Below, in pieces: positions 1-19,218 of a stretch of DNA of 64,000 bases. The position numbers and the translations under genes are program-made. How positions within the stretch are numbered: position 1 is the stretch's first letter; each line of letters starts with the position of its first letter. Under the pieces are notes generated by a model. That model ran no database searches. It worked only from the letters and a program-made list of their open reading frames with translations, and was not told where the DNA came from. The DNA comes from an archaeon (lineage in GTDB: Archaea > Nanobdellota > Nanobdellia > Pacearchaeales > GW2011-AR1), in assembly GCA_043821585.1 (NCBI GenBank), contig JBDRCQ010000002.1:133969-197968 (forward strand), read 5' to 3'.

Positions 1-1
1 G

Positions 2-5266: not shown

Positions 5267-5353
5267 TTTTGTAATTTAGGGTAAAAGCCGACGGTGAATT
5301 TCTATCCAAAAGGTTTATAAATAAAATGTTCTTACTGGATGTAGACAAATACA

Positions 5354-5917
5354 ATGGGTCTATTTAAGAGAAAAGAGGTGCCAGCAGAATTGCCGAGTCT
5401 TGCGGTTGACGAGGTTAAGAGAGTTGATCCTTCGCCTAGTCTTGTTCCGCAGCCCCAACCACAAGTTCATATCAGGGAGCAACCGGTTTCTTATAAGCCC
5501 TTGCCTGTTGCTGAGACACCTAAATCTGATAACGCGAGTGGAACTGTTTCCGGCAAAGATGAAAGCGGATACTTTAAGAATCTAGTTAAGAGTATTACCG
5601 AGGAGACGGAGGATTTGGACAAGCTGAGTTCTTGGTATAAGAATAAGTTTATGCCCGGAGATATGGTTTTTCAGATGAGGGAATATTGGCAGAAGCAGCA
5701 GCCTGAGTTGATGTTGAAGAATATCAGTGGGGAGTTGAAGCAGAAGTTGGCTGGGAAGACTGAAAAGTTGCATGCGCTTGAGAAAGAATGGCAGGAAGTT
5801 TACTTTAATTTGTTGAGCAAGGAGGAGGAGATTAGGAAGGAGGAGAAGGAGCTGAAAGATTCTTTGGCGGAGTTTATTGGTATGTTGAAGGGACCTCTTG
5901 GGAAAGAGGATAAGTAG
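5354..5917 (+). CDS. hypothetical protein with charged, coiled-coil-like C-terminal half
   Basis: 187-aa ATG ORF. It has a P/Q-rich N-terminus and an E/K-rich heptad-like C-terminus. No family was recognised. Confidence 0.45.
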   Translation: MGLFKRKEVPAELPSLAVDEVKRVDPSPSLVPQPQPQVHIREQPVSYKPLPVAETPKSDNASGTVSGKDESGYFKNLVKSITEETEDLDKLSSWYKNKFMPGDMVFQMREYWQKQQPELMLKNISGELKQKLAGKTEKLHALEKEWQEVYFNLLSKEEEIRKEEKELKDSLAEFIGMLKGPLGKEDK

Positions 5918-5918
5918 T

Positions 5919-6443
5919 TTAGTTAAGACCCCATGCCGAGTTGGAGTACTTTTGTTCTTTAAGGAGCCTTTTTATTTCGCTTTTTATGTCTTTGATGTCT
6001 TTTTCGTTTAATGGTTTCATTTTATTGTAGTGTTCGGGGTTTTTCTCTCTGTGTCCGGCAAATATGGCGTCTCCGTACTTGTTTATTTTTGCGCTTTTGG
6101 CCCTTCCGTAAACATGGATGTGAAAGTAAGGGCCTTCTGGTTTGAAAACGCCCCAGTTTCCGTTATCTTGGTAGTTGATTCTTCCTATGTCAACTCCGCG
6201 TTCATTCATGACCTTGTTCATAGATTGGCCCACTACGATTGTTAGTCTCATTAGCTCTATTGCTTGTTTAGGGGGGAGTTGTTGTCGGTTGATCAACCTA
6301 ATTTTTGGGTAAATTTTAATGTGGCCTCCCTCGTCTCTGTCGACATGGGGTTTTTCAACAGCGTCTATTTTGAAATTTTCTGTTTCATAGATTAATGTCA
6401 TAGAATTAGATGAATTTGCATGTATAAAAATCTTAAGATACAT
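5919..6443 (-). CDS. HIT-like (histidine-triad-related) protein
   Basis: The motif PYFHIHVYGR resembles the HxHxHxx triad with the third His replaced. The true start is probably MTLIYETENF at 6401. Confidence 0.4.
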   Translation of the reverse strand: MYLKIFIHANSSNSMTLIYETENFKIDAVEKPHVDRDEGGHIKIYPKIRLINRQQLPPKQAIELMRLTIVVGQSMNKVMNERGVDIGRINYQDNGNWGVFKPEGPYFHIHVYGRAKSAKINKYGDAIFAGHREKNPEHYNKMKPLNEKDIKDIKSEIKRLLKEQKYSNSAWGLN

Positions 6444-6471
6444 TTTTATATTCCCCCTGGTTAGATTTTTT

Positions 6472-6834
6472 ATGCCTAGGAGTAAGAAGCATAAGCCTGA
6501 TAAAAAAGGTGGGAAGCGGAAGAAAAGGTCGTTGTTAATAGGGATTGTTCTGATTGTGCTTTTGGCGGTTTTGGTGCTGTTGGTTCCTGTTTTGCTTTAC
6601 CAGCTTGGTTTGGTTAATAATCCTTTTACTAATCTGCATTTTCAGCCGAAGGAGTTTATTGTTAAGGATGAGTGTGCGATGATTGTTGGAAATTTGATTC
6701 ATCCTATTCAGGATGAGGGAATTTGTGAGCAAAGGTGCAAAATGGATTGTGATGTTAGAGGGTTATTTTTCTACGATTTTGAATTTACAGAAAGTGTGGG
6801 TGATTGCCACACATGTAAATGCCGTTGCAGATAA
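6472..6834 (+). CDS. small membrane-anchored cysteine-rich protein
   Basis: It has a basic N-terminus and one TM helix (LLIGIVLIVLLAVLVLLVPVLL). The C-terminal domain contains 8 Cys. Confidence 0.5.
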   Translation: MPRSKKHKPDKKGGKRKKRSLLIGIVLIVLLAVLVLLVPVLLYQLGLVNNPFTNLHFQPKEFIVKDECAMIVGNLIHPIQDEGICEQRCKMDCDVRGLFFYDFEFTESVGDCHTCKCRCR

Positions 6835-6837
6835 GGG

Positions 6838-7440
6838 GTGAACATGGATCTTGAGGAAATAGAAGACGTTTACAGAAGAGAGTTAGAGGAGATAGAGAAG
6901 AATTTTTTGAAAGCGGTAGCTGATAAAGAAAAGTCTAAGGGCGCTGAGAAGGCATATAAGGGAAAGATTAAGGCGGCGAGGGATAGATATTACACCTCAG
7001 TTAACACTTATTTGGAGAGAGAAAAGAAGAATCTTGGGAAGAAAGATAATAAGAAAAAGGAAAAGGAGACAAAACAGTTTAAGGTTGTGCCCGGGAATTT
7101 TGAGTTGAGCTGGTGGCAGAGGCAGAAGCTGCGTTGGGGTTTATTTTTCTTTAAGAAACGTTTTAGCGCAAGGAATAAGATTCGGAAGAATACTCCCGAG
7201 TTTGTTTCTTACCAGTACTACAAAAAAAGGCTTTTGTTTGGGAGATTTTTTGGTGTTGTGGGCGACTCTGTGAGGGGGGCTGCTTCTGAGGTTGCTTCTG
7301 TCTTGCAGGGCAATTATGAGATGTTTAAGAAAGGGGCTCAGAAGGCTTTGAAGTATCTTAGCGAATTACCTGGCAAGATCTTTGCCAAATTCTTTAAGAA
7401 GAAGGGGAAGGAAGGGGAGAAGAAAGAGGAAAAGACTTAA
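6838..7440 (+). CDS. lysine-rich hypothetical protein
   Basis: 200-aa ORF (likely ATG at 6844) with K/E-rich low-complexity ends. No family was recognised. Confidence 0.45.
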   Translation: MNMDLEEIEDVYRRELEEIEKNFLKAVADKEKSKGAEKAYKGKIKAARDRYYTSVNTYLEREKKNLGKKDNKKKEKETKQFKVVPGNFELSWWQRQKLRWGLFFFKKRFSARNKIRKNTPEFVSYQYYKKRLLFGRFFGVVGDSVRGAASEVASVLQGNYEMFKKGAQKALKYLSELPGKIFAKFFKKKGKEGEKKEEKT

Positions 7441-8189
7441 ATGTTCTCTAGGAAATCTAGAGTTTTACTAATCTCTTTCTTGTTTATGTGTTTTCGGAAA
7501 TACTCTTTTGACAAGTCCTTGGGGTAATGGTTTGAGGAAGTTTTTACTACGAGGAGTTTTGGTACTTTTTCAAACAGATCGATTATTTTTTTGGAGCGTA
7601 TCAGGCGGTCGTTTTCGTTTACTGCAAGGATGTACGGCTTTCTGTGCAACTCTATTTCTTGTTTATCACTGAGTATTATCCCAGCAGTTTTAAAGAGGGT
7701 TCGCGCGTCAACTGTTTCTAAAATTTTCCCTATGCTGTTTTTTGGGATTTTTAGTTTGGTTAGTGCCCATTTGAAAATTGAGGTTCTGTATGCGAAGTTG
7801 TATAGCTTTGTTTTGTAAATTATTTTTGTGACTGTTGCTAGGAATGTTCGGACTAGAGGGTTTAGCCTTAGGTAATCTATATTTATGAATGGCTCTAAGG
7901 CAAGGATGCTTTTGCATTCTCTTTCCATCTTGCATTGGTTTGCAATGAGAAAACCGAAACTCACTCCGCCTAAAATATAATTTTTTAGTTTTAGTTCGGT
8001 TATCTTTTTGTCTACATATCTTGCGTAATTTTTTACGCTTATCTTTTCTAATGGGGGCACGCCTGTGTTGAATCCGGGCAAGTCTATAGGGTAAATATTA
8101 AAGTATTCTTCGAGATATTTAATCAATCCCGCCAGTATGGTTTTGTTTGTTGGGAATGAATGTATCAGGACGAGGTTTTCTTTTTTCAT
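7437..8189 (-). CDS. alpha/beta-fold hydrolase
   Basis: It carries the nucleophile elbow GGVSFGF (GxSxG). The 250-aa length and the N-terminal beta-strand/HSFP pattern fit the fold. Confidence 0.55.
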   Translation of the reverse strand: MKKENLVLIHSFPTNKTILAGLIKYLEEYFNIYPIDLPGFNTGVPPLEKISVKNYARYVDKKITELKLKNYILGGVSFGFLIANQCKMERECKSILALEPFINIDYLRLNPLVRTFLATVTKIIYKTKLYNFAYRTSIFKWALTKLKIPKNSIGKILETVDARTLFKTAGIILSDKQEIELHRKPYILAVNENDRLIRSKKIIDLFEKVPKLLVVKTSSNHYPKDLSKEYFRKHINKKEISKTLDFLENI

Positions 8190-8190
8190 T

Positions 8191-11064
8191 TTAGTTCAGC
8201 TCAAAGTAAAAGTAAACATTAGACGTTTCTGTTTTGTCGTACTCTCTGAGTTTGACTGGCAGCTGTATTTCATAGTCGTATGTGCCGTGGTCTCCGGGCT
8301 TGCCTTTGTTGAATGGGCTCATGAAAACAAGGTCTTCTTCATCAACTGTGCCGTATTCTGAATCTGTGTCATCGTCGCTGTCCCAGAGTATTCCTGTTTT
8401 GAAGTTGCCGTTTTCTGAGGAGTCTATGATGGGGATGTTGGTTACTGTTTGTTTTCTTATGATGGTGGAGGTGTAGCCTAATGGTGGCCAGCCGCCTGTG
8501 GTGAATGTGTTTGCTACTGAGTCAGTGAAGTTTGTTGTGTTAAGGAGAATATCTATTTCCGTAAAGTCATCTGTTGCGTTGTTTCCAGAGAGATCTTGGC
8601 CTATTGCTTTTAGAGATGCCCAGTTGATGTTACTCTCTGTGTCTGCTACGAAGATGCTTCCTGTCAAAGAGGTCTCGTTCTCCCAGACAGTGACGTTTTC
8701 TATTGAGGAAGAAGCGAGTATTTTAGTTATCGTTGCGTTTCCATAGAAATCCTGCCAGGAGTTTATGTCAATTGAGCGATTCGCTCTGTTGTTTGTTTCG
8801 TTGAGTTCGTTTACTGTGCCGTTTGTTGCTAGAGGAGGGTCTAGGATTACATGAATTGTGTGTGGGCCGATTGTTGTGGTGAAGTTTATCGAGGCAACCG
8901 CTGTTCCTCCAAGCTCTGAAATTAGGAGGGACTGATTTGATCCAATTTGTATACCGTTCGTGTCTGGGTCTCCGTCGAAGAATTGCACCTTAACAGTTCC
9001 CTCTTGGCCGCCGATATTGTAAATTGTTGCGTTTATTGTCATGTTTGTTCCTTCGATAGTTGTTGCGTTATCGAAATCTATGTCTGTGGAGTTTAGAGTG
9101 AAATCTGGGGGGACTATCATATAGAACCATTCGTCTTCTGCTGTAAAGCCCACGTTGTTGATTGTGTCGTTACAGCGGACATTCCATTTTATCCAAGTGT
9201 TTTCTGTGAAACCAGATATTGTAAATGTGTTTTCTCCGCTTGGGTTGTATGCTTTTGTTTCTTCTAACGTGAAGAGGCCTGACTGGTCGTGGAAGATTGA
9301 ACACGAGTCAACTCCAGAGGGGTCTGTCGCCGTGTAATTTACTGTTATTGAGACTCCGAAGTTGGTTGTTCCGTTTTCAGGGAAACCAAGGATCACATCA
9401 GGTGGACGGAAGTCTATTTCAAATTCATAATAACCTGAAAGATTGTTCCCTAAGCCGTCTTGCATGATTGTTCCATTTGGTGATATGAACGCGGCGAATG
9501 CTCTGTAGATTCCTCCCGGATTGGAGTCTGTGTTAAATCCAGAGCCTTCTCCAGGGCCATTCCAGATGTTTGTTAGGTTGAGGGTTTCTCCAGCATTGAT
9601 CTCTCTTCTTTTTCCGGTTGTTGTGTCATTGACGATTGTCTCAAAGTTTTCCCAGTATCCTGATGAATTTGATAAGACCGATAAAAGAAGGTGGCCGCTT
9701 ATCGGTGTTGAGCCAGTATTGTTTATGATTGAAGGATTGTATGCGGTGGATGTGGCGTTTGGCCATTGAACGACTTCACAGTGGAATGTGTGGGAGGGGT
9801 CGCCGTTTCCTTCCTGGCCTCTTTCACAGTAGAAGGTGTCTTCGTCTAAGAGGTAACACGGATATTCTCCTTTAGCGTGGTTGTTTCCTTCCCCATTGTT
9901 GTAGAGTGAATAGGCGCAGAATCCAAGGGTTTTGTTTAAGTCGTCAACAGGATTTGAAAAAGAGGTATCAAACTGTAGGATGTTGCTGATTTCGGCTCCA
10001 GGGACGTGGTGCTCTACTTCTTCATTTCTGCCGCCTGGAAATTCTATAACGTATGCGACACATTCCTGGTTGGATGCTTCTGTAGTTCCTAATCCAGAGG
10101 TTAAGCAAGTTACGCTGCTGGTTCCATCCAAGTAACATTCTATATTTGCATGTTCTATTCCATCTCCGTCTGATTGGCAGCTGTAAATAAGCCAGGACTT
10201 GTCTCTGTTTACTGAGTGGCCGATACCTACTGTTGTTCCGGAATCGAAATGTGTTGATCCCAAATGAACTGGGGTGACGTTGGTTTCGTCGTTGAAACAG
10301 ACGACCTGTGCCTCTACAACTGAAACTCCGCAAGCAGTGTTGTCTCTTTGTAGATTGAGGTTTGTGGTGCTTGTTATATTGGCCATAACTTTTTGTTCTT
10401 CTGAACAAGTGTTAGTGCCAGAGCTTGCTTCTACGTTGTGGCGGGTTGAGACGAAACATTTTTCTTGGTAGTTTGAGGGGAGAGGTACATCACAGGACGC
10501 TAGAGAAACGTCTTCATTGCCGTCTGCGTTGGGCATCGTGTGGGAAATATGGCAGACGTCTATGTTATCTGATTGTAGGACGCTGTATGAATTGATCATT
10601 ATTCCTGTTGTGGATCCACGCTCTGCTGTTAGTTCTGATGAGTAGCCGTTTGAGATTGAGGAGAAGTATACGCGTCCGAGCCTGACATTAGGATCTTCTG
10701 TTGATGCTGCTCTAACTTGCGAGTCTGCTACGATGAATGTTTTGTTTATTTGGTACGTGTTACTTAGAGAATCTGTGCTGCTTGTAACTCCAGAGGTTAC
10801 CATGAATCCCTGTTCTGCTTGGACGTTGAAACTCACTATTGTGTAAGTTGTGTCGGTAATGTTTACTATTTCGTTAGGTATATATGCATTTTTATTTGTT
10901 TTTAGTGCTGTTGTGAGATTTGATTCTGCGAAGAAGTTTCCCATTGTGAGAGTTTGATTTGAGAAACCCGCGGTGTTGTTTGCCCAAATTGTGTAGTTGT
11001 AAGTTCCTTGGTACCAAGTTTGGGTAAAGTTATACTCGAATTGGCTGCCCCCTATTGGAGTCAT
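8191..11064 (-). CDS. giant NxS/T-rich surface (adhesin-like) protein with CARDB-like domain and conserved C-terminal module; N-terminus missing
   Basis: 957-aa ORF from the first ATG. It has a CARDB-like segment (…IYNIGGQEGTVKVQFFDGDP…NELNETNNRANRSIDI). Its C-terminal roughly 190 aa is paralogous to the end of the 11363-17473 protein. No signal peptide is present. Confidence 0.8.
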   Translation of the reverse strand: MTPIGGSQFEYNFTQTWYQGTYNYTIWANNTAGFSNQTLTMGNFFAESNLTTALKTNKNAYIPNEIVNITDTTYTIVSFNVQAEQGFMVTSGVTSSTDSLSNTYQINKTFIVADSQVRAASTEDPNVRLGRVYFSSISNGYSSELTAERGSTTGIMINSYSVLQSDNIDVCHISHTMPNADGNEDVSLASCDVPLPSNYQEKCFVSTRHNVEASSGTNTCSEEQKVMANITSTTNLNLQRDNTACGVSVVEAQVVCFNDETNVTPVHLGSTHFDSGTTVGIGHSVNRDKSWLIYSCQSDGDGIEHANIECYLDGTSSVTCLTSGLGTTEASNQECVAYVIEFPGGRNEEVEHHVPGAEISNILQFDTSFSNPVDDLNKTLGFCAYSLYNNGEGNNHAKGEYPCYLLDEDTFYCERGQEGNGDPSHTFHCEVVQWPNATSTAYNPSIINNTGSTPISGHLLLSVLSNSSGYWENFETIVNDTTTGKRREINAGETLNLTNIWNGPGEGSGFNTDSNPGGIYRAFAAFISPNGTIMQDGLGNNLSGYYEFEIDFRPPDVILGFPENGTTNFGVSITVNYTATDPSGVDSCSIFHDQSGLFTLEETKAYNPSGENTFTISGFTENTWIKWNVRCNDTINNVGFTAEDEWFYMIVPPDFTLNSTDIDFDNATTIEGTNMTINATIYNIGGQEGTVKVQFFDGDPDTNGIQIGSNQSLLISELGGTAVASINFTTTIGPHTIHVILDPPLATNGTVNELNETNNRANRSIDINSWQDFYGNATITKILASSSIENVTVWENETSLTGSIFVADTESNINWASLKAIGQDLSGNNATDDFTEIDILLNTTNFTDSVANTFTTGGWPPLGYTSTIIRKQTVTNIPIIDSSENGNFKTGILWDSDDDTDSEYGTVDEEDLVFMSPFNKGKPGDHGTYDYEIQLPVKLREYDKTETSNVYFYFELN

Positions 11065-11490
11065 TGTTTCTAGGAAGTTTTCGCCTAGCGGGGTGGTTAT
11101 ATTGGCTATTGCTGTGTCTATTGCACTTGTGGATGTTATTGTCGCATTTATAGATATGTTGTAACCATAACCGGTTGAAGAAGGGTAGTTATCTTGGAAG
11201 ATTGTTAGGACGTCTGTAACCGTTATGTTTGTGATATTTGAGCTTTGAAGTACGTAATCTGCGTTGTTGCCATTGAATGTTACATTTGTGGGGAAGGAGT
11301 TTATTCCTACTGGAGCATCTGTTGGAATTGTATAATTTATGGTTGCATAACCGGTTGCGTTTGTGATTGCTGAGAGGTTTTCTTGGAAGGTTATGTTTTG
11401 GTTAGGTATAGCTGAACTGTTGTCATATTCTAGCCTTGCCGTGATTGTTATGGGTTCGTTTCTTAAAGGATTTGATTGGTTGAACCAGAC
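11065..11490 (-). other. start-less upstream continuation of the 8191-11064 reading frame (142 codons of Ig-like-domain coding sequence)
   Basis: The same frame stays open up to the stop at 11491-11493. It translates to domain-like sequence (…ITARLEYDNSSAIPNQNITFQENLSAITNATGYATINYTIPTDAPVG…). It contains no in-frame ATG, GTG or TTG. Confidence 0.7.
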
Positions 11491-14400
11491 TTATCAGGTT
11501 ATGGCAAATCAGGGAAGCTTTGTTGCTTTTGGAAACGAGGAGAAAGGTAAGGCTGGAGCTATTCCAATGATTGTCGGTGAAGAACCGTTTTATACAATTT
11601 CTCAGAACCCTCGGGATCATATCAACTCGACTTGTTTGTCTGATTTGAAACCAGGGATGAGTTGTGATGTTAGTTGGAGTGTGAATGCCACTGGAGAAAT
11701 TAATTCAGTGTGGGAATTCTATGTGATAGCAAATACTACAAACTACACTAATTGGTTTTCTTCAGACAGCGAGTCTAGGAGAATTAATATTACAATTGTT
11801 AATCAACTTGCTCCGAGCGTTCCTCAACTTAATGCTCCTCAGAACGGTTCTGCTTCGGCTACGGTTCTTGAATTTAACTGGACTAATTCTACTGATGTGA
11901 ATAGTGATCCAATTTATTATGTTCTTCAGGTTAGCAATGTGTCAAACTTTTCTAGTTTGGTTTATTTCAATGGATCTATCCCTGAGACGGGGAGCCCAAC
12001 TGGAGATACGCCTGTCTTGCCTTCTTTTGGAACCTACTATTGGAGGGTTTTGGCAACAGATTTAATGGCCAATTCTTCATGGAGCCAGACTTGGACATTT
12101 TATTACGATGTTTCTGCACCTAATTTGACTTTTATTAATCAATCAGGGGAGGACAATGAAATAGTTGATGAATCTCATCCGCTTGATGAGGGAGAGAACA
12201 TGACGGTTTATGTGGAGGTTGATGATATTAACGTGGACAGCGTTTGGATTGTGGTTTGGGAGACCGTGAAAGGCGGGGCTGAGAAGGCAAAGATATTCTT
12301 TACATATGTGGGAGGGTTGTTGTGGAAGGCAGTCATTCCAACAGATTACTCTTGGGAGGGATTGGTTTATGATTATACTATTTATGCTAACGACACCCTG
12401 AATGAAACTGTTGAGTATGATGGGAACTTCACTATGCTACATGGCGATATAACTCTTGATTTAAGTCCAAATCCAGTTACGGAAACAACTGGGGTTATGG
12501 CTTTTGGACATCTTAATTTGACTAACGGGTCTGTTCTAGGGAGTTACCCTATAAACTTGTGGCTAAATGGAACGCTGTTGTTGTTTTCTAATTTGACAGC
12601 TAATGGGGCCTATGACAATTATCTTAATTTCAGCGATACTTCGAACTCTGAATTTGATGAAGGGGCTTACTTCCAGACTGAAAGCGATTGGCAGAATTTG
12701 ACGCTTGCTTCGGGTAATACTTCTGGCAACTTCACAAGAATCTTTGATGCTGGAGCGCGTGTTGAATGGGATAACATTTGGTGGTCTTCTGCGGGACATG
12801 CTTGTTCTGCAGTAGTATCATTTCAAGAAGGAGATTCTAATGGTTATTCGGGTACAGAAGATACTTATGTAGACAGCGGGGTTTCCTCGAGTAATTTTGG
12901 CTCGGCAGATGCAATTGTTGTTGATGGTTCTCCCGACAATGAAAATGGTCTTGTAATGTTCAGTAGAATCTTAGGAACAGGGTTTAATCAGATTCCTAGG
13001 AACTCAACGATAAGCGCGGCTAATGTAACGTTTGAAGTTTATGATCCGGGAAACCTTGTCGCGGTTTATGAGATTCTAGAAAACTGGACTGAAAGCCAGG
13101 CCACTCATGACAATAGGCTTACTGGAATTGCTTGGAGTTCTGACGGCTGCGAAGACGCTCCTTCAAGATCAACGACTTATGAAGATACATTCACAGCGGG
13201 AGTGGTTGGCGCGTATACAGCTGATATAACCAATGCCGCAAGGCGCTGGGTCAACGGAACCTCTAACAATTATGGTATTGTTCTTGATTTAACTACTAGT
13301 AACGGTATTAATATTCGTAGTAGCGAGTATTCTACTCAAGATGAAAGGCCTATTTTGACAGTTGGATACAGTTCGGATGACTGTACTGGTGTAGATGTCT
13401 ATGTTCGAACATCTAATGATAGGGTCTCCTGGAGCGCGTGGAAGAAGGTTTCTAATGGTGAAGGTATTAACGATACCAATTTGGCCAGTCGGTATCTTGA
13501 GTATAAAGTTGAGCTGACATCAACAGATCCTTCATTTACACCTTACTTACAAGAGTTTAGCGTTAATTATACTGCTGTTGTAACAGATACAAGCGGAGAT
13601 TATAGTTACAACTTTACTAACCCTTCGGCATACGCTGATTACGAATTTGTTGTTTCATCAGGATTAAGGACTATTGTGATAAATAATACGAAAACTTTGT
13701 CAGTTCAAACAGGCGTTGCTCCAGAAGTGGCTTTATTGTATCCTTCTGACGGACAGTGGTTTGCTTATGGAAACTTAACTTTCATTTACAATGCTACAGA
13801 CATAAACGATGACATGATTAATTCTACTCTGATTATAAATGGGTTGATTAATGCGACTAATTCCAGCGAAATCTTAAATGGGCTGAATAATAGTTTCTTT
13901 GCTAATTTTACTGGTGGTCAGTATAACTGGACGGTGAATGTCACTGATAGTTCGGGATTTGTATCTACTGATGCCTTGCGGAGTTTTTACGTTGATTTGG
14001 AAAATCCCGTTATTGAGCTAGTCTTCCCGCCAAATGGGACTTCTTATGTTCTTAATGAATTGAACCTCACGTTTAAGGCTACAGATAATCTTGATGATGT
14101 TTTGATGTGTGATGTCTTTCTTGGGGAAGATGCTATACATGATGATGTTCCTGTCGTTAATGGCGTGGAGACCAATTTCTCTTCCGGAGCGCTTACATCT
14201 GGTTGGTATTCTTGGTATGTCACTTGCGTAGACGAGGTGGGGAGAAGCAATATTAGTTCTATTGATTGGTTTTTGATAAATGACACCTTCCCAGAGGTTA
14301 CGCTTGTTTGGCCAGAAGAGAACTATTTTGATGGCGATGGAAATATTTCTTTTGTCTTTAACGCAACAGATAATTCTGGATTTTTAAACTGCAGTCTGAT

Positions 14401-17400
14401 AATTAATGATAGTTTTTATTCGCTTAATCAAACTTCTATAAACAATGGGCAGAATAGCACAATCAATGCTACGGGTCTTGGGGAGGGGAATCACAATTGG
14501 ACAGTAGAATGTTTTGATTTAAGTGCAGGTTCCGATAAAGCATCGGCTAGGAACTTTAGTGTGGATCTTTACTTTCCTACAATTTCACTTAACAGTCCTG
14601 AGAACTATGGGAATGTTAGCTCCGCTGACGTTAAGTTTAACTTTACTGCTAATGATACATTTGACTCTTTGTTAGACTGTAATTTAACAGTCGATAACGT
14701 GGTTAGAGATACATTCACAGCTAGCTCTGGCGTTGAAACAAGCAAGCAGGTGGATGACTTCACCGATGGTGAAAAGGTTTGGTATGTGACTTGTTGGGAT
14801 GGTGCGGGGCATACTAATTTGAGCTCTCTTTGGAGAGTAAACGTTCTTGAGCCTCCGACGGTTATTTTGAACACTGATAACGAAACCTCTTTTGATACTT
14901 CCGACTTCAATTTGAGTTATACGCCAAGTGATAATACAAACCTTAGTTCTTGTGATTTGTACATTGATGGCGCGTTCAATCAGACAAATGACACTGAAAT
15001 TATAAATGGCGTTCAACGGAATTTCACGGTTTTGGGAATGTCTGCTGGCCAGCATATGTGGTTTGTTAATTGTACTGACATGATGAATCTGACTAATATT
15101 TCTGAGACGCGCGTATTTGCTGTGGATACTTTTGGACCAAATATCACTCTTCATTATCCAGATGGTCATGAAATCGGAACCGACAATGTAACGTTTAACT
15201 TTACAGCAGTGGATGATACAGACAGCTCTTTTGTTTGTAATCTCACCGTCGATACTAGCATTGTGCGGGGAAGTTTTGTGGTAGACAATGGCACTGTTAC
15301 GAACGTAACAGTGGCCGACATAACTGATGGCTACCATGTGTGGTTTGTTAATTGTACAGATAGTGCTAGTAATACTGAGGGAAGTGCTATATTTAATTTC
15401 ACCAAGTCTACCCCTCCACAAGTCTCTTTAATTGCCCCTCCTGATGGATATTGGTTTAACGCTTTGCCGTTTAATCTGACTTATTTGCCTTCGGATGATG
15501 AGGGCTTCTTTGGGGCTGTGCTTTATATAAACGAGGAGTTCAATATGACAAACTCTACTGAAATTTTGGAGTTTGAGAATAATACGTTTGAAATATCCAG
15601 TTTTATGGAAGGGGCCTATAATTGGACAGTTAAGGTAACAGACGTTAGGGGACTTAATGATACTGCTTCCCCTAATTGGACATTTTATTTAGACACTACG
15701 CCTCCGCAACTTGTCTTGAACTATCCTAATGCCTCTGCTAATCTGTCTAATAACAATGTGACTTTTAATTTCACAGTTTCTGATAACTTAGACTTGAGCC
15801 TTGAGTGCAATCTGTATCTTGATGGGGAAGTGGATTATTCGGACAACTTTACGAGCGATTCTGATGTGGTCCATTATGCTCTTGTTGGTGACGGGTTGCA
15901 CTTCTGGAATGTTACTTGCGTGGATGAGGCTTCTAATTTCAATGTTAGCGAGATCATTAATTTTACTATTGAAGCGCCTCCGAACGTTACATTGGTTTCA
16001 CCAAATAACGGAGCTTACATAAATTATACAGATACGGTTTTTGTTTATCTACCAGAAGATCCTATTGGAATAACTAATTGTTCGATTTATATAGATGGTG
16101 TCTTTAATGATACGGACACTTCTGTGACTGCAAATGAAAACAATAATTTTACTGTTTCCAATATCCTTGAGGGTTATCACAATTGGACCGTCGAGTGTGT
16201 TGACGCAATTCCAGATTATAACTTATATAGGGCGCCTGTTTGGAATCTTACAATGGACAGAACCTCTCCAAACATCACCTTGAGTTCTCCAGGTGATGGG
16301 GAAAATGTTTTGGGGGCCCCAACGTTTAACTTTAGTGTCGAGGATAATTATGACGATCAAATGGATTGTGGAATCTACATAGACGGTGTCTTTAATGTTT
16401 CTACTAGCGTGAATAATGGTTCTTCTACTTCACAAACTATTTCAGGTCTTGATCTGGGGGACCATAGTTGGAATGTTTCGTGCGTTGATAATGCAAGTAA
16501 TTTAGGTTGGTCTGCGACTTGGAGCTTTAACGTTACCTTCTCTGATTTGTATGTAAATGAAAGTAGCCTCGTGTTTAATGATTCATCCCCTACAGAAAAT
16601 CAGACAATTCAAATAAATGCCACGGTTTATAATCTTGCTTCGGTGGGAATTTATAATGTTACAGTTAGTTTTTATGATGGTCACCCTTCGAGCGGAGGTG
16701 CTCAAATCGGAACCAATCAGACAATTAATTATATCGGAAGTCTGAGTCAGGAAGTTGCGACTGTTGAATGGAATGCAGATCTGGGCACTTCAGTAATTTT
16801 TGTGTTTGTTGATCCTCCTACGGAATCTAATGGGAGCATCGAGGAATGGGACGAGACCAACAATGAGGCAAATAAGTCAATTTCTGTTGGGGGTTGGCAT
16901 TTTGTTGTTGGCGATATTTCTGCACTTAGCGAATTTGATTTGGCAGAGGGAATTACTAACAAGAGTGTTAAAAGATGGACTGCAGTAAATTATGAAAGTG
17001 GGAATCTTTACGTTGCGGATGAGGATTCTTCGGTTTCCTGGACTACATTGCAAGCGCTGGGTAAGGATTCTAGCGATGCTGACGCTTCAAACGACTTTGA
17101 TGATATTGATAATTTATTGAGCATGACTGGTTTTGCAGATTCTGTCTCGAATCTTTATTTGAATAGCACGGGAGATATATCCCAATTAGATACTTATGTG
17201 ATCTTCAAAGGAAGTGTTGACGAAGTTCCTATTACAAATTCTACCAACAATACTAACTTCTTTACAGGGATCTTGTGGGACTTTAGTGATGATGTTGGCG
17301 ACGGGGAATATAGCATTGACGACGTGGAGGACCTAGTTTTCGTAACAGAGATACAAAAAGATCTAACCGGGGCTTATGGGGTTTATGATTATGAACTGAG

Positions 17401-17473
17401 GATTCCTGCAACCTTGAGAGAATACAAGGTTGCGGGGTCGCGTGAAGTTGTTCTTTACGCAGAATTGAGGTGA
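11363..17473 (+). CDS. giant NxS/T-rich surface (adhesin-like) protein: N-terminal NP..C..L..G.SC..W.VNATG domain, DNRLRE-like domain, 10 Ig-like modules, CARDB-like domain, conserved C-terminal module
   Basis: 2036-aa uninterrupted ORF. Candidate starts are GTG 11363, ATG 11393 (hydrophobic MFWLGIAELLSYSSLAVIVMGSFL) and ATG 11501. The motif ATHDNRLTG lies at about 13100. The CARDB-like segment (…EEWDETNNEANKSISV) lies at about 16540-16895. Confidence 0.85.
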   Translation: MIAERFSWKVMFWLGIAELLSYSSLAVIVMGSFLKGFDWLNQTYQVMANQGSFVAFGNEEKGKAGAIPMIVGEEPFYTISQNPRDHINSTCLSDLKPGMSCDVSWSVNATGEINSVWEFYVIANTTNYTNWFSSDSESRRINITIVNQLAPSVPQLNAPQNGSASATVLEFNWTNSTDVNSDPIYYVLQVSNVSNFSSLVYFNGSIPETGSPTGDTPVLPSFGTYYWRVLATDLMANSSWSQTWTFYYDVSAPNLTFINQSGEDNEIVDESHPLDEGENMTVYVEVDDINVDSVWIVVWETVKGGAEKAKIFFTYVGGLLWKAVIPTDYSWEGLVYDYTIYANDTLNETVEYDGNFTMLHGDITLDLSPNPVTETTGVMAFGHLNLTNGSVLGSYPINLWLNGTLLLFSNLTANGAYDNYLNFSDTSNSEFDEGAYFQTESDWQNLTLASGNTSGNFTRIFDAGARVEWDNIWWSSAGHACSAVVSFQEGDSNGYSGTEDTYVDSGVSSSNFGSADAIVVDGSPDNENGLVMFSRILGTGFNQIPRNSTISAANVTFEVYDPGNLVAVYEILENWTESQATHDNRLTGIAWSSDGCEDAPSRSTTYEDTFTAGVVGAYTADITNAARRWVNGTSNNYGIVLDLTTSNGINIRSSEYSTQDERPILTVGYSSDDCTGVDVYVRTSNDRVSWSAWKKVSNGEGINDTNLASRYLEYKVELTSTDPSFTPYLQEFSVNYTAVVTDTSGDYSYNFTNPSAYADYEFVVSSGLRTIVINNTKTLSVQTGVAPEVALLYPSDGQWFAYGNLTFIYNATDINDDMINSTLIINGLINATNSSEILNGLNNSFFANFTGGQYNWTVNVTDSSGFVSTDALRSFYVDLENPVIELVFPPNGTSYVLNELNLTFKATDNLDDVLMCDVFLGEDAIHDDVPVVNGVETNFSSGALTSGWYSWYVTCVDEVGRSNISSIDWFLINDTFPEVTLVWPEENYFDGDGNISFVFNATDNSGFLNCSLIINDSFYSLNQTSINNGQNSTINATGLGEGNHNWTVECFDLSAGSDKASARNFSVDLYFPTISLNSPENYGNVSSADVKFNFTANDTFDSLLDCNLTVDNVVRDTFTASSGVETSKQVDDFTDGEKVWYVTCWDGAGHTNLSSLWRVNVLEPPTVILNTDNETSFDTSDFNLSYTPSDNTNLSSCDLYIDGAFNQTNDTEIINGVQRNFTVLGMSAGQHMWFVNCTDMMNLTNISETRVFAVDTFGPNITLHYPDGHEIGTDNVTFNFTAVDDTDSSFVCNLTVDTSIVRGSFVVDNGTVTNVTVADITDGYHVWFVNCTDSASNTEGSAIFNFTKSTPPQVSLIAPPDGYWFNALPFNLTYLPSDDEGFFGAVLYINEEFNMTNSTEILEFENNTFEISSFMEGAYNWTVKVTDVRGLNDTASPNWTFYLDTTPPQLVLNYPNASANLSNNNVTFNFTVSDNLDLSLECNLYLDGEVDYSDNFTSDSDVVHYALVGDGLHFWNVTCVDEASNFNVSEIINFTIEAPPNVTLVSPNNGAYINYTDTVFVYLPEDPIGITNCSIYIDGVFNDTDTSVTANENNNFTVSNILEGYHNWTVECVDAIPDYNLYRAPVWNLTMDRTSPNITLSSPGDGENVLGAPTFNFSVEDNYDDQMDCGIYIDGVFNVSTSVNNGSSTSQTISGLDLGDHSWNVSCVDNASNLGWSATWSFNVTFSDLYVNESSLVFNDSSPTENQTIQINATVYNLASVGIYNVTVSFYDGHPSSGGAQIGTNQTINYIGSLSQEVATVEWNADLGTSVIFVFVDPPTESNGSIEEWDETNNEANKSISVGGWHFVVGDISALSEFDLAEGITNKSVKRWTAVNYESGNLYVADEDSSVSWTTLQALGKDSSDADASNDFDDIDNLLSMTGFADSVSNLYLNSTGDISQLDTYVIFKGSVDEVPITNSTNNTNFFTGILWDFSDDVGDGEYSIDDVEDLVFVTEIQKDLTGAYGVYDYELRIPATLREYKVAGSREVVLYAELR
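13715..16540 (+). repeat. tandem array of ~10 coding repeats (~283 nt / ~94 aa Ig-like modules, two alternating subtypes)
   Basis: Module boundaries with a P-rich linker recur at about 13720, 13995, 14283, 14565, 14845, 15125, 15410, 15695, 15970 and 16258 (e.g. APEVALLYP, ENPVIELVFP, FPEVTLVWP). Conserved internal motifs are W.V.C.D and NF(T/S)A.D. Confidence 0.75.
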
Positions 17474-17493
17474 TTTTGTCTTCGGTAATTTTT

Positions 17494-17538
17494 GTTTCTT
17501 AGAAACATTTAAATAGTGTATATACATCTGTATATACA
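17494..17538 (+). promoter_or_regulatory. promoter (GAAACATTTAAATA) flanked by palindromes: GTTTCTTAGAAAC and two copies of the 10-bp palindrome TGTATATACA
   Basis: TGTATATACA occurs at 17517-17526 and 17529-17538, 2 bp apart, ending 1 nt before ATG 17540. The TATA/BRE 14-mer is identical to the one at 1382-1395. Confidence 0.45.
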
Positions 17539-17539
17539 G

Positions 17540-17746
17540 ATGGAACAAAAAGAAATCAAGAAAGACTTCGAAAAAATTGCAAGGCAGATACAAGGGCTGA
17601 GCAAAGAAATTGAAAGGGTTGTTCCTTATGCGATCATCAAAGATACAACTGTCTTTGGGAATTCATCTCATGTTGTTCTTTCTAGGAACTTTTTGGATAA
17701 AAGAGTTGGCGTAATCATTCTTGGGGATAGGGGGGCAGACAAATGA
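17540..17746 (+). CDS. small AbrB/SpoVT-like (DUF2080-like) protein
   Basis: 68 aa counted from ATG 17540. The C-terminal segment TVFGNSSHVVLSRNFLDKRVGVIIL resembles the swapped-hairpin K.V..FGnS..V.lP...vGk.V.V pattern. Confidence 0.4.
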   Translation: MEQKEIKKDFEKIARQIQGLSKEIERVVPYAIIKDTTVFGNSSHVVLSRNFLDKRVGVIILGDRGADK

Positions 17747-17783
17747 TTTATTTTAATGAAATAACTGCAAGGAGGTGTTTGAA

Positions 17784-17921
17784 ATGATATTTTCAGTTAG
17801 CGAATATCTGGGTTTTACGCCTGAGGAAGTCTTGGAGATTTTGTCTGAGGACGGAATAGAGATAACAGCAATACGAGAACCACAAGAATTCCAAAAAGCA
17901 GTCTTCCTTCAGAGAGGATAA
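17784..17921 (+). CDS. small hypothetical ORF (45 aa)
   Basis: The ATG is preceded by AGGAGGTG at 17770-17777. The product is MIFSVSEYLGFTPEEVLEILSEDGIEITAIREPQEFQKAVFLQRG. It is absent from the track, which only lists ORFs of 60 aa or more. Confidence 0.35.
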   Translation: MIFSVSEYLGFTPEEVLEILSEDGIEITAIREPQEFQKAVFLQRG

Positions 17922-17946
17922 AAACTTATTTTATTTTTTAATTTTC

Positions 17947-18162
17947 TTAATTTGATTTTTCTGCAAACTCTGTATAGTGGCATTTTCCGCAGAACACTCT
18001 TGTTTTGTGGTCTGCTAAAAAGTTTCCAGGGCCGCATCTTGGGCAAGTCTTTTTAGTTTTCTTACCCTCTTGATAATGCGAGTATTTTTTGCTGGTCAAT
18101 TTATTTTTGTGCGGTTTCTTACCTTTCTTGTCCTTGTTTGATCCGCCTTTTGATTTTGCCAT
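17947..18162 (-). CDS. rps27ae: 30S ribosomal protein S27ae (eS31)
   Basis: It has a basic N-terminus and the zinc ribbon [27 protein letters not shown]. It is the last gene of the canonical archaeal cluster. Confidence 0.9.
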
Positions 18163-18431
18163 TATGCTCCTGCTTTTTTCTTAGGTTTAATTTTTGGTTC
18201 GATCCTTTCTTTGTCTTTTATTGATTCATAGATAAACGCTTCAACTAGAAACTCATTTGTTCCGAAATTGTTTTTTATATATTTTACTGTAATGTTATCT
18301 AGTTCTGCTTTGAATTTTTCGGCGATTGATTTCCTTGAACCCTCAAATCCAGGGTTTGATTCTGATGCTAGTGAGACTAGGAGCTCTTTTCTTTTCAATA
18401 ATTCGTTTTTTGTTTCGTTTAGGATTTCCAC
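18162..18431 (-). CDS. rps24e: 30S ribosomal protein S24e (eS24)
   Basis: The sequence [13 protein letters not shown]…[15 protein letters not shown] is typical of S24e. The gene is start/stop-coupled to its neighbours. Confidence 0.85.
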
Positions 18432-18616
18432 TATGCTCTTATTGCGTATTCTCCTTTTTCTTTGATTTTAAGCTTTTTGGCTATTTCAGAATCTTCTGGA
18501 TTTAAAATAAATACTCTGCCTTTAAAGGCGTCGGAAAACTCTTCAGATCCACATTTTGGGCATTTTGCTCCGGAGAAAATTGTCTTACATTTTTTGCATG
18601 CTTTTTGTTTTGCCAT
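18431..18616 (-). CDS. spt4: transcription elongation factor Spt4 (RpoE'')
   Basis: 61-aa protein with the zinc ribbon ACKKCKTIFSGAKCPKCGS followed by KGRVFILNPE. It sits between rpoE' and rps24e. Confidence 0.9.
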   Translation of the reverse strand: MAKQKACKKCKTIFSGAKCPKCGSEEFSDAFKGRVFILNPEDSEIAKKLKIKEKGEYAIRA

Positions 18617-19218
18617 TATTTCTTAGCTCCTTTTTTGGTTGGAGATTCTGACTTTTTTGCAGCCTTTTTTGCGGCAGATTCTTTCTTTTTCTTGTCTTCG
18701 TCTAACCATTGTAATTTTCCTAAACCTGCTTGTCGCATTGTCATGCCAATTTTTGGCATTCCTGCTTTGTAGCTTATTGCAACAACTCTTGCTAAGCAGT
18801 CGTCTCCTTTTGCAAGGGATCTCTTTGAGGATTTTCCAGAAAGTGTTCCAGTTTTATTTAGAGAAACGTAGTCTTCCATTGTCTGGGAGATGTGTATCAT
18901 CCCTCTTGCTGGACCGACTTGCATGAATGCGCCGAAGTTTGTTATCTCGGAGACTGTTCCGTAAACTAGCTCGTGCAATTCTGGTTTCCAGGTTAGGATT
19001 TTGAACCTCGAGTTATAGTACGCGGCGCCGTCTCCAGGGATTATCACGCCTTCGTCTATATCCCCGATTTCTAAAACTGCCATTACATAACCAAGTTCTT
19101 TTGTTACAGAATCAACGAAATTCTCGTTTAGCTGCTTTTCTACTGCTTCGTGAGTAGGCAGGCCGAAGTGTTTCGGTTCAACTCTTACATGATCTTCAAC
19201 ATCCAGGATATAGAACAT
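18616..19218 (-). CDS. rpoE1: DNA-directed RNA polymerase subunit E' (Rpo7) with S1 domain
   Basis: The N-terminus MFYILDVEDHVRVEPKHFG and the S1-like segment GTVSEITNFGAFMQVGPARGMIHISQ match Rpo7. It is the first gene of the cluster. Confidence 0.9.
   Translation of the reverse strand: MFYILDVEDHVRVEPKHFGLPTHEAVEKQLNENFVDSVTKELGYVMAVLEIGDIDEGVIIPGDGAAYYNSRFKILTWKPELHELVYGTVSEITNFGAFMQVGPARGMIHISQTMEDYVSLNKTGTLSGKSSKRSLAKGDDCLARVVAISYKAGMPKIGMTMRQAGLGKLQWLDEDKKKKESAAKKAAKKSESPTKKGAKK

What the first reader, a model, noticed from the sequence alone, without database searches (positions are those of the whole stretch)
11065..11500. Two giant surface-protein genes collide head-to-head; one has 142 codons of domain-like sequence but no start codon
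Seen in the sequence:
- The minus-strand frame of the 8191-11064 gene stays open for another 426 nt, up to a stop at 11491-11493.
- That stretch translates into typical Ig-like-domain sequence (…NEPITITARLEYDNSSAIPNQNITFQENLSAITNATGYATINYTIPTDAPVG…).
- It contains no in-frame ATG, GTG or TTG, no signal peptide and no promoter space.
- The oppositely oriented 6.1-kb gene begins inside this stretch. Its candidate starts are GTG 11363 and ATG 11393, with TATAATTTAT at 11331-11340.
- The only hydrophobic N-terminal segment of that gene (MFWLGIAELLSYSSLAVIVMGSFL) is encoded antisense to the orphan Ig-like sequence.
- Its first recognisable domain (PFYT…NP…C…W.VNATG) starts just after ATG 11501.
- The two genes end in paralogous CARDB-plus-C-terminal modules, so they form a large inverted pair.

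Inference, with three possible explanations:
1. A DNA inversion or recombination breakpoint, conceivably a shufflon-like or phase-variation arrangement in which one expression site with its N-terminus is swapped between surface-protein bodies.
2. A decayed paralog, with the neighbour's signal anchor overprinted on the antisense strand.
3. A chimeric inverted join created by amplification or assembly.
Basis: partly seen in the sequence, partly recalled or inferred. Interest (0 to 1): 0.65.

Follow-up and report, generated by a model that had tools for sequence, protein, structure and literature searches.

The report
Two truncated surface-protein genes fused head-to-head
Two giant cell-surface protein genes of a tiny (DPANN-type) archaeon have both lost their front halves and now abut at a short shared sequence. 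This is most likely a recent deletion scar, or possibly an assembly error, and not a gene-switching device; the public annotation wrongly calls both remnants complete genes.

Summary
The minus-strand frame of the 8191-11064 gene ("X") stays open to 11490 with no ATG/GTG/TTG. Those 142 codons are genuine coding sequence. They align without a break across the annotated Met to residues 1420-1651 of a 2518-aa homologue (E 5e-77).

X is the C-terminal 1099 aa of a ~2500-2900-aa protein with a signal peptide, so about 1400-1800 aa are missing. The plus gene ("Y") is truncated too. Its orthologue in a close relative (71.5% identity over 2010 aa) continues at least 771 aa further upstream.

Y-derived sequence begins at 11474 and X-derived sequence ends at 11481-11490. 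The fragments therefore overlap in 8-17 nt of microhomology that contains the near-palindrome TGGTTGAACCA.

- The junction sequence is not repeated elsewhere in the window.
- No recombinase was found in 64 kb.
- No candidate start has a TATA box above background.
- The missing halves are not in the window.
- Third-position strand bias shows neither fragment was flipped recently, which argues against inversion or a shufflon.
- Both remnants are intact and evolve no faster than intact orthologues, so the event is very recent or artefactual.

Best reading: a microhomology-mediated deletion between two divergent giant genes (~0.5). Main rival: a chimeric read or assembly join (~0.33). Ordinary in kind; useful mainly as an annotation correction.

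The parts
8191..11064 (-). Annotated part of gene X (NCBI MFH1802005.1, 957 aa, 'CARDB domain-containing protein'). It starts at an internal Met of the ancestral protein.
   Evidence: tblastn of P0005 residues 1420-2518 matches window 11490-8194 at 58% identity, and P0009 residues 1834-2931 matches at 60%.
11065..11490 (-). The 'orphan' 142 codons: the in-frame, start-less continuation of X. It encodes Ig-like domain sequence that lies in the middle of full-length homologues.
   Evidence: phmmer E 4.8e-77, query 1-232 aligned to P0005 1420-1651 across Met143. Codon-usage score is like the rest of X. No start codon.
11474..11490 (.). Junction and microhomology zone, GATTGGTTGAACCAGAC. 11474-11481 is confidently homologous to both parents, and 11482-11490 possibly so. 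It contains the near-palindrome TGGTTGAACCA (11477-11487), which reads W-L-N-Q on the plus strand and W-F-N-Q on the minus strand.
   Evidence: Codon-level comparison with L002 and L003 (X side) and L081 (Y side). blastn of L081 reaches window 11473.
11491..11496 (-). Two consecutive stop codons (TAA, TGA) in the X frame. X-derived sequence cannot extend beyond 11490.
11474..17473 (+). Y-derived coding sequence, a 5'-truncated giant surface protein. NCBI annotates it from ATG 11501 (MFH1802006.1, 1990 aa, 'DNRLRE domain-containing protein'). That Met is an internal residue conserved in the orthologue (QMMANQ versus QVMANQ).
   Evidence: 71.5% aa identity over 2010 aa to the giant gene of L081, which has at least 2779 aa and continues at least 771 aa further upstream. 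Accession.
11363..11473 (+). In-frame upstream extension of the Y ORF (GTG 11363, ATG 11393; hydrophobic MFWLGIAELLSYSSLAVIVMGSFL). It is antisense to X coding sequence, is not homologous to the Y orthologue, and is most likely fortuitous.
   Evidence: No homology to L081 upstream of 11474. The overlap 11363-11490 (which runs 17 nt into the microhomology zone) scores -0.17 in the plus frame, against +0.32 for 11501-11926. About 4.6% chance occurrence.
11331..11340 (+). It does not match the local promoter consensus above background.
   Evidence: A PWM (nTTTAWATAn, -28 to -58 from the start codon) built from 24 genes gives a best score of 3.8 upstream of GTG 11363. Real genes score 4.6-13.7 and the background mean is 2.9.
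5354..7440 (+). Three genes downstream of X that are syntenic with the X-orthologue loci. They show that the left flank is in its ancestral arrangement.
   Evidence: tblastn of L002 and L003 neighbour proteins: 52-71% identity at window 5348-5902, 6430-6831 and 6844-7386.
17947..19218 (-). RpoE(Rpb7)-Spt4-S24e-S27ae operon, convergent with Y. The same arrangement is found in relative L081, which anchors the right flank as ancestral.

Best explanation
The stretch 11065-11500 is not an intergenic region. It is the scar of one illegitimate joining event that fused the interiors of two divergently transcribed giant surface-protein genes.

**What is shown**
- X (minus strand) keeps only the last 1099 codons of a ~2500-2900-codon gene.
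- Y (plus strand) has lost at least 771 codons.
- The two remnants meet at 8-17 nt that both parental sequences share.

**What is inferred**
- The DNA once between them was removed by a microhomology-mediated deletion (replication slippage or end joining between short direct repeats). That DNA would have held both 5' halves with their signal peptides and promoters. It probably also held the CHASE4 / histidine-kinase / response-regulator cluster that lies upstream of X in relatives.
- The event is very recent, or is a variant allele within the sampled population.
- Both remnants now lack a promoter and a signal peptide, so they are most likely silent gene fragments. The public annotation calls them complete proteins from internal Met codons.
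For: - X truncation: collinear homology of the whole 1099-codon frame to residues 1420-2518 of P0005 and 1834-2931 of P0009. Both of these carry N-terminal signal peptides.
- Y truncation: the orthologue in L081 continues at least 771 aa upstream. Window Y begins in the last ~10 residues of a domain ('...IDEVRISNVFRST|DWVNQTYQ'). Its first complete domain is one that lies internally in other giant proteins.
- Microhomology of 8-17 nt at 11474-11490.
- Both flanks are ancestral. Genes downstream of X are syntenic with L002/L003, and Y is convergent with the RpoE operon as in L081.
- No recent flip. Third-position skew on the plus strand is about +0.4 to +0.57 (GC) and -0.4 (AT) for genes of both orientations on both sides of the junction. 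X orthologues sit on the C/A-rich strand and the Y orthologue on the G/T-rich strand, exactly as in the window. A deletion preserves this polarity automatically.
- The upstream two-component cluster and the X N-terminus are absent from all 64 kb.
- Tetranucleotide composition is the same on both sides.
- The overlap is shorter than the k-1 = 20 nt that a de Bruijn graph with k >= 21 needs for a repeat-induced misjoin (the k value is from my own knowledge of assemblers).
Against: - Both remnants are perfectly open (3.3 and 6.1 kb). Relative-rate tests show no acceleration compared with intact orthologues. This requires a very recent event and is explained equally well by an artefact.
- The ancestral adjacency of X and Y is not shown. 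Within 6-10 kb upstream of X in L002 and L003 there is no Y-like gene.
- No reads or independent assembly of the same population could be found.
- Contigs of relatives break in or at these giant genes, so the region is hard to assemble.
Confidence: 0.5

Rival explanations
1. Artefact. The contig is chimeric at 11474-11490. A chimeric library fragment or read formed by template switching at the microhomology, or an erroneous end-join of two contigs that each broke inside a giant repetitive gene. In the real genome both X and Y would be full-length.
For: - Both ORFs are intact and evolve no faster than intact orthologues.
- Independent assemblies of relatives end at or inside these genes: L001 inside an X homologue, L081 inside Y, and L082-L084 just beyond the small ORFs that precede the 3' end of Y in L081.
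- No promoter or signal peptide is present for either remnant, which is odd for retained genes.
- Junctions with a few to ~20 nt of microhomology are typical of amplification chimeras (own knowledge).
Against: - The overlap is at most 17-18 nt, too short for a k-mer-graph repeat join at k >= 21.
- The contig is 201 kb long, which suggests coverage high enough for single chimeric reads to be pruned (inference).
- Composition is identical on both sides.
- Strand-bias polarity is continuous across the junction, which a random misjoin achieves only about half the time.
Confidence: 0.33
2. Breakpoint of a genuine but non-programmed inversion or translocation, for example one symmetric about the replication origin or terminus. 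The reciprocal junction (X 5' part converging on Y 5' part) would lie elsewhere in the genome.
For: - The head-to-head collision of two 5'-truncated genes is the geometry produced by an inversion whose breakpoints lie in two same-strand genes (inference).
- The junction contains a near-palindrome.
Against: - Neither fragment shows flipped third-position skew, and both match the polarity of their orthologues.
- The reciprocal junction and the X N-terminus are not in the 64-kb window.
- A word-indexed protein search with the X N-terminal profile found no fragment on a 201,320-bp contig. This is weak evidence, because the same kind of search missed the exact Y protein.
Confidence: 0.08
3. Programmed, shufflon-like or vsa-like switching. 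X and Y would be silent 3' cassettes that a site-specific recombinase joins to a single expression site carrying the promoter and signal peptide.
For: - In a shufflon, adjacent segments do present start-less partial ORFs head-to-head, separated only by a recombination site (own knowledge of R64 pilV; topic reviewed in PMC9881135).
- Surface adhesin-like proteins are typical targets of phase variation.
Against: - No copy of the junction sequence occurs elsewhere in the window at up to 3 mismatches, and no shared k-mer of 13 nt or more.
- No significant inverted repeats lie between or around the genes.
- No recombinase, integrase or transposase was found in 64 kb.
- Orthologues of X are ordinary contiguous full-length genes with conserved flanks.
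- Strand-bias polarity is unmixed.
Confidence: 0.03
4. Add-on to the real-deletion reading. Y remains functional because the junction supplied a new start (GTG 11363 or ATG 11393) and a new signal anchor, encoded on the antisense strand of the X remnant.
For: - An in-frame start is followed by a 25-residue hydrophobic segment (Kyte-Doolittle 19-residue mean 1.71). This happens at only ~4.6% of possible junction positions.
- The Y ORF is intact and under no detectable relaxation.
Against: - No TATA box above background lies upstream of either start.
- Plus-strand codon usage of the overlap region is poor.
- The X remnant is just as intact without any such rescue, so intactness is not evidence of function.
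Confidence: 0.06

Closest known systems
Gene remnants left by microhomology-mediated deletion (ordinary prokaryotic pseudogene formation)
   Same: One junction truncates two neighbouring genes. A short shared sequence sits at the breakpoint. Promoters and 5' ends are lost. The flanks remain collinear with relatives.
   Different: Both remnants are unusually long (3.3 and 6.1 kb) and completely undecayed. The deleted segment and the ancestral adjacency could not be observed directly.
Shufflon of IncI plasmids (pilV / Rci) and other gene-altering programmed inversions (PMC9881135, PMC5430464)
   Same: Start-less partial ORFs for surface-exposed proteins abut head-to-head.
   Different: No repeated recombination sites, no recombinase, no constant 5' segment and no sign of past flipping. 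The 'cassettes' are one to two thousand codons long and are orthologues of ordinary full-length genes.
Chimeric junctions from amplification or library preparation, and metagenome misassembly
   Same: An abrupt switch between two unrelated loci at a few to ~20 nt of microhomology. The location is inside repetitive giant genes where assemblies of relatives break.
   Different: The overlap is too short for a k-mer repeat join. Composition and strand-bias polarity are continuous. The contig is long.
Giant Ig-like/CARDB/LamG-type surface proteins of DPANN archaea (e.g. the giant proteins described for nanohaloarchaea, PMC10266531)
   Same: X and Y belong to this general class. They are multi-kilobase genes with tandem beta-sandwich domains and many N-glycosylation sequons. 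Homologues come from Woese-, Pace- and Nanoarchaeota MAGs.
   Different: Here only the C-terminal parts are present. There is no signal peptide and no ATPase or secretion-system domain.

Membership tests
Shufflon-like / programmed gene-altering inversion | Inverted repeats (about 14-22 bp or longer) flanking the invertible segment, in or next to the target CDSs (criteria used in PMC9881135) | tested here: not met
   The best inverted pairs in 7000-18500 are 14-28 nt at 70-100% and none lies at the junction. The junction 31-mer is unique at up to 3 mismatches. No shared k-mer of 13 nt or more.
Shufflon-like / programmed gene-altering inversion | Site-specific recombinase (tyrosine or serine invertase) encoded nearby | tested here: not met
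   Pfam scans of about 70 of the larger ORFs of the 64-kb window (most of those of at least 120 aa, plus three small ribosomal/Spt4 genes) found no integrase, invertase, resolvase or transposase.
Shufflon-like / programmed gene-altering inversion | A constant 5' expression segment (promoter plus N-terminus) to which the cassettes can be joined | tested here: not met
   No sequence in the window resembles the X N-terminus (P0005 1-1419 or P0009 1-1833). Sequence outside the window could not be tested.
Shufflon-like / programmed gene-altering inversion | Both orientations coexist in the population | not testable with these tools
   No reads. Exact look-ups found no other assembly of this sequence. 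Indirectly, the unmixed third-position skew argues against frequent flipping.
Orthologous group of giant surface protein X (P0005, P0009) | Collinear homology over the C-terminal ~1100 residues | tested here: met
   58% (P0005) and 60% (P0009) identity over 1102 aa, E = 0.
Orthologous group of giant surface protein X (P0005, P0009) | N-terminal signal peptide plus ~1400-1800-residue N-terminal region | tested here: not met
   The frame is closed by TAA/TGA at 11491-11496. The N-terminal region is absent from the window.
Orthologous group of giant surface protein X (P0005, P0009) | Conserved neighbours: three small genes downstream; CHASE4 / HisKA / 2x response regulator / DUF835 upstream | tested here: inconclusive
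   The downstream genes are present. The upstream cluster is absent from the window.
Orthologous group of giant surface protein Y (L081 giant gene) | Collinear homology, and the same position convergent with the RpoE-Spt4-S24e operon | tested here: met
   71.5% identity over 2010 aa. The DNA alignment runs window 19273-11473 against L081 701-8492.
Orthologous group of giant surface protein Y (L081 giant gene) | Upstream module (at least 771 aa, with DUF2341 and a LamG-like domain end) | tested here: not met
   Homology stops at window 11474. The upstream plus-frame sequence is unrelated.
Microhomology-mediated deletion scar | Short sequence at the junction attributable to both parental sequences | tested here: met
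   11474-11481 is shared with confidence and up to 11490 possibly.
Microhomology-mediated deletion scar | Both flanks keep their ancestral orientation | tested here: met
   Synteny of both flanks. Skew polarity is equal on both sides and equal to that of the orthologues.
Microhomology-mediated deletion scar | X and Y were neighbours before the event, and the lost DNA is absent from the genome | not testable with these tools
   Only 64 kb of the 201-kb contig is available. Scans of GTDB genomes and JGI metagenomes found no close relative carrying both genes.
Assembly or library chimera | Compositional discontinuity, or a shared repeat of at least k-1 nt at the join | tested here: not met
   The tetranucleotide distance of the left part lies within the range of right-side segments. 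The overlap is at most 17-18 nt.
Assembly or library chimera | Lack of spanning read support | not testable with these tools
   No reads available.

The most novel reading that the evidence does not exclude
The junction is real, and the truncated Y protein was rescued. A start codon and a signal anchor born de novo on the antisense strand of the dead neighbour's Ig-like coding sequence now export a 2036-aa surface protein. This would be a natural example of one rearrangement creating a new N-terminal targeting sequence by overprinting.
Probability: 0.06. Interest if true: 0.55.

Novelty: new member of a known kind. Interest (0 to 1): 0.3.

Why it matters
- **Annotation.** Two public protein records (MFH1802005.1 and MFH1802006.1) present fragments as complete proteins that start at internal methionines. 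A 436-nt 'intergenic' gap is in fact mostly coding sequence.
- **DPANN biology.** If the junction is real, it shows that the host-interaction repertoire of giant surface proteins turns over by large deletions. The event is caught here before any decay.
- **Genome scanning.** In genomes with extreme strand bias, long start-less open frames are common. Homology to full-length relatives, not ORF shape, decides what they are. Third-position skew can tell deletion from inversion without reads.

Tried and rejected
- **Pfam on the orphan stretch and on the first 340 aa of the extended X frame:** nothing useful, even at E <= 10. The exhaustive phmmer search was what solved it.
- **Exact-protein look-ups** for X, several Y start variants and the neighbouring hydrolase gave no contig on record, so no independent assembly or reads were available. 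One look-up failed for lack of a slot.
- **Simple inversion of one ancestral gene** was rejected. The N-terminus of Y is unrelated to the N-terminus of X orthologues; only the C-terminal modules match.
- **Homologous recombination between domain repeats** was rejected. The two genes share no DNA-level repeats. Such recombination would also give in-frame chimeras, not a switch of coding strand.
- **Search for the missing X 5' half:** tblastn over the window found nothing. A profile search of the 5.8-billion-protein set found no fragment on a 201,320-bp contig. This is weak, because that index also missed the exact Y protein. A GTDB scan returned only distant N-terminal-domain relatives. L078, from a related MAG, is not an X orthologue.
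- **Metagenome scans** found nothing, both for the exact left flank and for the extra N-terminal part of the Y orthologue.
- **The TATAATTTAT 'promoter'** was rejected using a PWM trained on 24 local upstream regions.
- **Inter-genome chimera** was rejected by tetranucleotide composition.
- **Not run:** structure prediction, because the sequence homology was already decisive.
Full report
**1. The observation**

The minus-strand frame that holds the 8191-11064 ORF stays open up to 11490. It is closed by TAA (11491-11493) and TGA (11494-11496). The first ATG/GTG/TTG after these stops is ATG 11064. The plus ORF runs 11363-17473, with GTG 11363, ATG 11393 and ATG 11501. TATAATTTAT lies at 11331-11340. 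The two proteins share a C-terminal module of about 420 aa (35% identity, E 3e-60) that includes CARDB hits.

Openness alone is weaker evidence than it looks. The plus strand of this window is strongly G+T-rich, so stops and starts are rare on the minus strand. Start-less, stop-free runs of 90-178 codons occur about a dozen times in 64 kb. Still, among 59 ORFs of at least 150 aa the next-longest start-less leader is 63 codons.

**2. The orphan codons are real coding sequence, and X is a 3' fragment**

A codon-usage log-odds score trained on the two giant genes gives +0.15 for 11065-11490 in the X frame. Undisputed parts of X score 0.11-0.19, and the other five frames score -0.3 to -1.0. Pfam sees nothing in the stretch.

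An exhaustive phmmer search of 1.84 billion representatives, using the first 235 residues of the extended frame, found 247 proteins at E<=1e-3. The best is P0005 (2518 aa) at E 4.8e-77. Query residues 1-232 align to residues 1420-1651, so the alignment runs straight through the annotated start Met143.

tblastn shows P0005 1420-2518 matching window 11490-8194 (58% identity over 1102 aa). P0009 (2932 aa) residues 1834-2931 match 11484-8197 (60%). Both homologues begin with a typical signal peptide followed by about 1400-1800 residues of other domains.

X is therefore the last 1099 codons of a gene of about 2500-2900 codons. Nothing resembling the missing N-terminal part occurs elsewhere in the window.

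The three small genes downstream of X are syntenic with the loci of P0005 (L002) and P0009 (L003). The CHASE4 / histidine kinase / two response regulators / DUF835 cluster that precedes X in both relatives is absent from the window.

**3. Y is truncated as well**

NCBI annotates X as MFH1802005.1 (957 aa, from ATG 11064). It annotates Y as MFH1802006.1 (1990 aa, from ATG 11501), on a 201,320-bp MAG contig labelled only 'archaeon'.

The window's RpoE protein clusters at 90% or more with proteins of Nanoarchaeota MAGs. One of their contigs, L081, carries the same RpoE-Spt4-S24e operon convergent with a giant gene that runs off the contig end after 2779 codons. That gene is the Y orthologue, with 71.5% identity over 2010 aa. 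DNA homology runs from window 19273 to 11473.

In the orthologue the protein continues at least 771 residues further upstream. This part includes a DUF2341 domain and a domain ending '...IDEVRISNVFRST|DWVNQTYQMMANQ'. From my own knowledge, this is the characteristic end of a LamG-type domain.

The window reads '...SFLKGF|DWLNQTYQVMANQ'. Homology begins exactly at the GAT codon 11474-11476 and there is none upstream of it. ATG 11501 is the second Met of the orthologue's 'QMMANQ', so it is an internal residue.

The first complete domain of window Y (PFYT...C...W.VNATG) is of a type found deep inside or near the C-terminus of other giant proteins. The hydrophobic 'signal anchor' (11393-11464) is therefore not Y sequence. 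It is the antisense translation of X.

**4. The junction**

On the X side, nucleotide and residue conservation with L002 and L003 is clear up to the AAC codon at 11479-11481 (a conserved N-x-S sequon). It is plausible up to GTC at 11488-11490. On the Y side, homology starts at 11474.

The two parental sequences therefore overlap by 8-17 nt (GATTGGTTGAACCAGAC). The overlap contains the near-palindrome TGGTTGAACCA, which explains why both strands read W-[LF]-N-Q. This is a microhomology junction with no filler. The overlap is shorter than the 20 nt that a de Bruijn graph with k = 21 would need to misjoin at a repeat (k value from my own knowledge).

**5. Tests of the programmed-inversion idea**

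- The junction 31-mer is unique in the window at up to 3 mismatches.
- No k-mer of 13 nt or more from 11455-11525 recurs on either strand.
- Inverted repeats in 7000-18500 are short chance-level matches, and none lies at the junction.
- Pfam scans of about 70 of the larger ORFs of the window found housekeeping genes, transporters, MNT/HEPN pairs and Hint-domain proteins. They found no recombinase, integrase or transposase.
- Orthologues of X are ordinary contiguous genes in conserved contexts.

**6. Strand bias as a clock for orientation**

Third codon positions show GC skew of about +0.39 to +0.57 and AT skew of about -0.37 to -0.42 in plus-strand letters. This holds for genes of either orientation, on both sides of the junction.

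In coding-strand terms, X has GC3 skew -0.63 and AT3 skew +0.33. Its intact orthologues have -0.35 to -0.40 and +0.1 to +0.2. Y has +0.08 and -0.47, and its orthologue has +0.26 and -0.53.

Both fragments thus sit on the same compositional strand as their orthologues. A recent inversion of either side, or frequent flipping, would have left the opposite polarity. A deletion between two divergently oriented genes preserves polarity automatically. A random misjoin would do so only about half the time.

**7. Expression signals**

A position weight matrix built from 24 upstream regions of this window recovers an archaeal TATA box (nTTTAWATAn), placed 28-58 nt before the start codon (28-51 nt in all but one gene). 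Real genes score 4.6-13.7.

Best scores upstream of the candidate starts are 3.8 (GTG 11363), 2.1 (ATG 11393), 3.7 (ATG 11501) and 2.0 (X ATG 11064). The mean for random positions inside the two genes is 2.9. Neither remnant has a recognisable promoter or a native signal peptide.

An in-frame start followed by a TM-like segment would arise by chance at about 4.6% of possible junction positions in X. That is mildly unusual but not compelling. Plus-frame codon usage of the overlap is poor (-0.17, against +0.32 downstream).

**8. Age**

Tajima-type relative-rate counts show no excess of lineage-specific substitutions in the window copies.

| Comparison | Unique changes, window copy | Unique changes, orthologue |
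|---|---|---|
| X against P0009, P0005 | 91 | 143-162 |
| X against P0009, P0005, with P0002 as outgroup | 85-91 | 74-109 |
| Y against L081 | 36 | 37 |
| Y against L081, second outgroup | 16 | 34 |

Both frames are free of stops over 3.3 and 6.1 kb. Either the event is very recent, or the contig is wrong at this point.

**9. Real or artefact?**

For an artefact:
- The remnants are pristine.
- Assemblies of relatives break at or in these genes. L001 ends inside an X homologue, L081 inside Y, and L082-L084 just beyond the small ORFs that precede the 3' end of Y in L081.

Against an artefact:
- The overlap is too short for a k-mer repeat join.
- Tetranucleotide composition is continuous across the junction.
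- Skew polarity is continuous.
- A 201-kb contig suggests adequate coverage.

I could not obtain reads or an independent assembly. I rate a genuine, recent microhomology-mediated deletion (possibly a variant allele that assembled more easily than the repetitive full-length allele) at about 0.5. A chimeric read or assembly join gets about 0.33, a non-programmed inversion or translocation about 0.08, and programmed switching about 0.03.

The statement common to all of these has high confidence (about 0.9). It is that the locus is an illegitimate join of two 5'-truncated giant genes and that 11065-11490 is X coding sequence.

**10. Comparison and novelty**

The geometry resembles the boundaries between shufflon segments, but the defining features that could be tested are absent. 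The locus belongs with ordinary gene remnants produced by deletion, or with assembly chimeras.

The proteins belong to the known class of giant DPANN surface proteins (PMC10266531). Homologues come from Woese-, Pace- and Nanoarchaeota MAGs.

The most novel reading still allowed is that Y was rescued by a de novo antisense-encoded signal anchor. Its probability is low, about 0.06.

The practical outcome is an annotation correction, plus a worked example of using full-length homologues and third-position skew to interpret a breakpoint.

Noticed in passing
window 1-64000 (all genes); also L002, L003, L081: Extreme strand compositional asymmetry. At third codon positions the plus strand has GC skew of about +0.4 to +0.57 and AT skew of about -0.4, whatever the gene orientation, across the whole 64 kb. 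Relatives show the same kind of bias. One consequence is that the minus strand is poor in stop and start codons and carries many long start-less open frames (e.g. 50169-50705, 178 codons).
   Followed up: partly
window 11501-17473: Y has a much lower GC3 skew (+0.08) than other plus-strand genes on the right side (mean +0.49), although its AT3 skew is normal (-0.47). Its orthologue in L081 has +0.26. Unexplained.
   Followed up: no
window 1781-4120 and 4269-5219 (+): Two adjacent proteins with Hint/intein-like C-terminal domains (PT-HINT, Vint, Intein_splicing below cut-off). The first also has DUF4215. They may be polymorphic-toxin-like or self-processing surface proteins.
   Followed up: no
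window 1-646 (+): The 3' end of another Ig-like surface protein (Big_13, DUF7743) runs off the left edge of the window.
   Followed up: no
window 24227-24733, 30338-31365, 31939-32712, 34038-34550 (-): Several minimal nucleotidyltransferase (NTP_transf_2 / Polbeta) genes, one of them paired with a HEPN-domain gene. These are MNT/HEPN toxin-antitoxin-like modules scattered among housekeeping genes.
   Followed up: no
window 7437-8189 (-): An alpha/beta-hydrolase gene lies directly downstream of X (its start codon follows the X stop codon by 1 nt). It is absent from the syntenic position in L002 and L003. Relatives L082-L084 carry a Ser_hydrolase gene next to the RpoE operon instead.
   Followed up: no
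L081 2495-10834 (-); P0155: The Y orthologue contains an internal tandem duplication of a large module. L081 residues 2-228 are 53% identical to window Y extended-frame residues 84-312, which align collinearly with L081 residues ~774-1002. The GOS fragment P0155 shows the same end-to-start module arrangement.
   Followed up: partly
L004-L080 (GTDB scan): The N-terminal 'AKDTDGNG...DYVEW' domain of the X family also occurs in many CPR bacteria (Staskawiczbacteria, Paceibacterota, Saccharibacteria), not only in DPANN archaea. This suggests a surface-protein domain shared across ultra-small episymbiont lineages.
   Followed up: no
tool behaviour: The word-indexed protein search with the first 700 aa of the Y ORF did not return the exact Y protein (MFH1802006.1), although it is in the collection. 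Negative results of that search are therefore weak evidence.
   Followed up: yes
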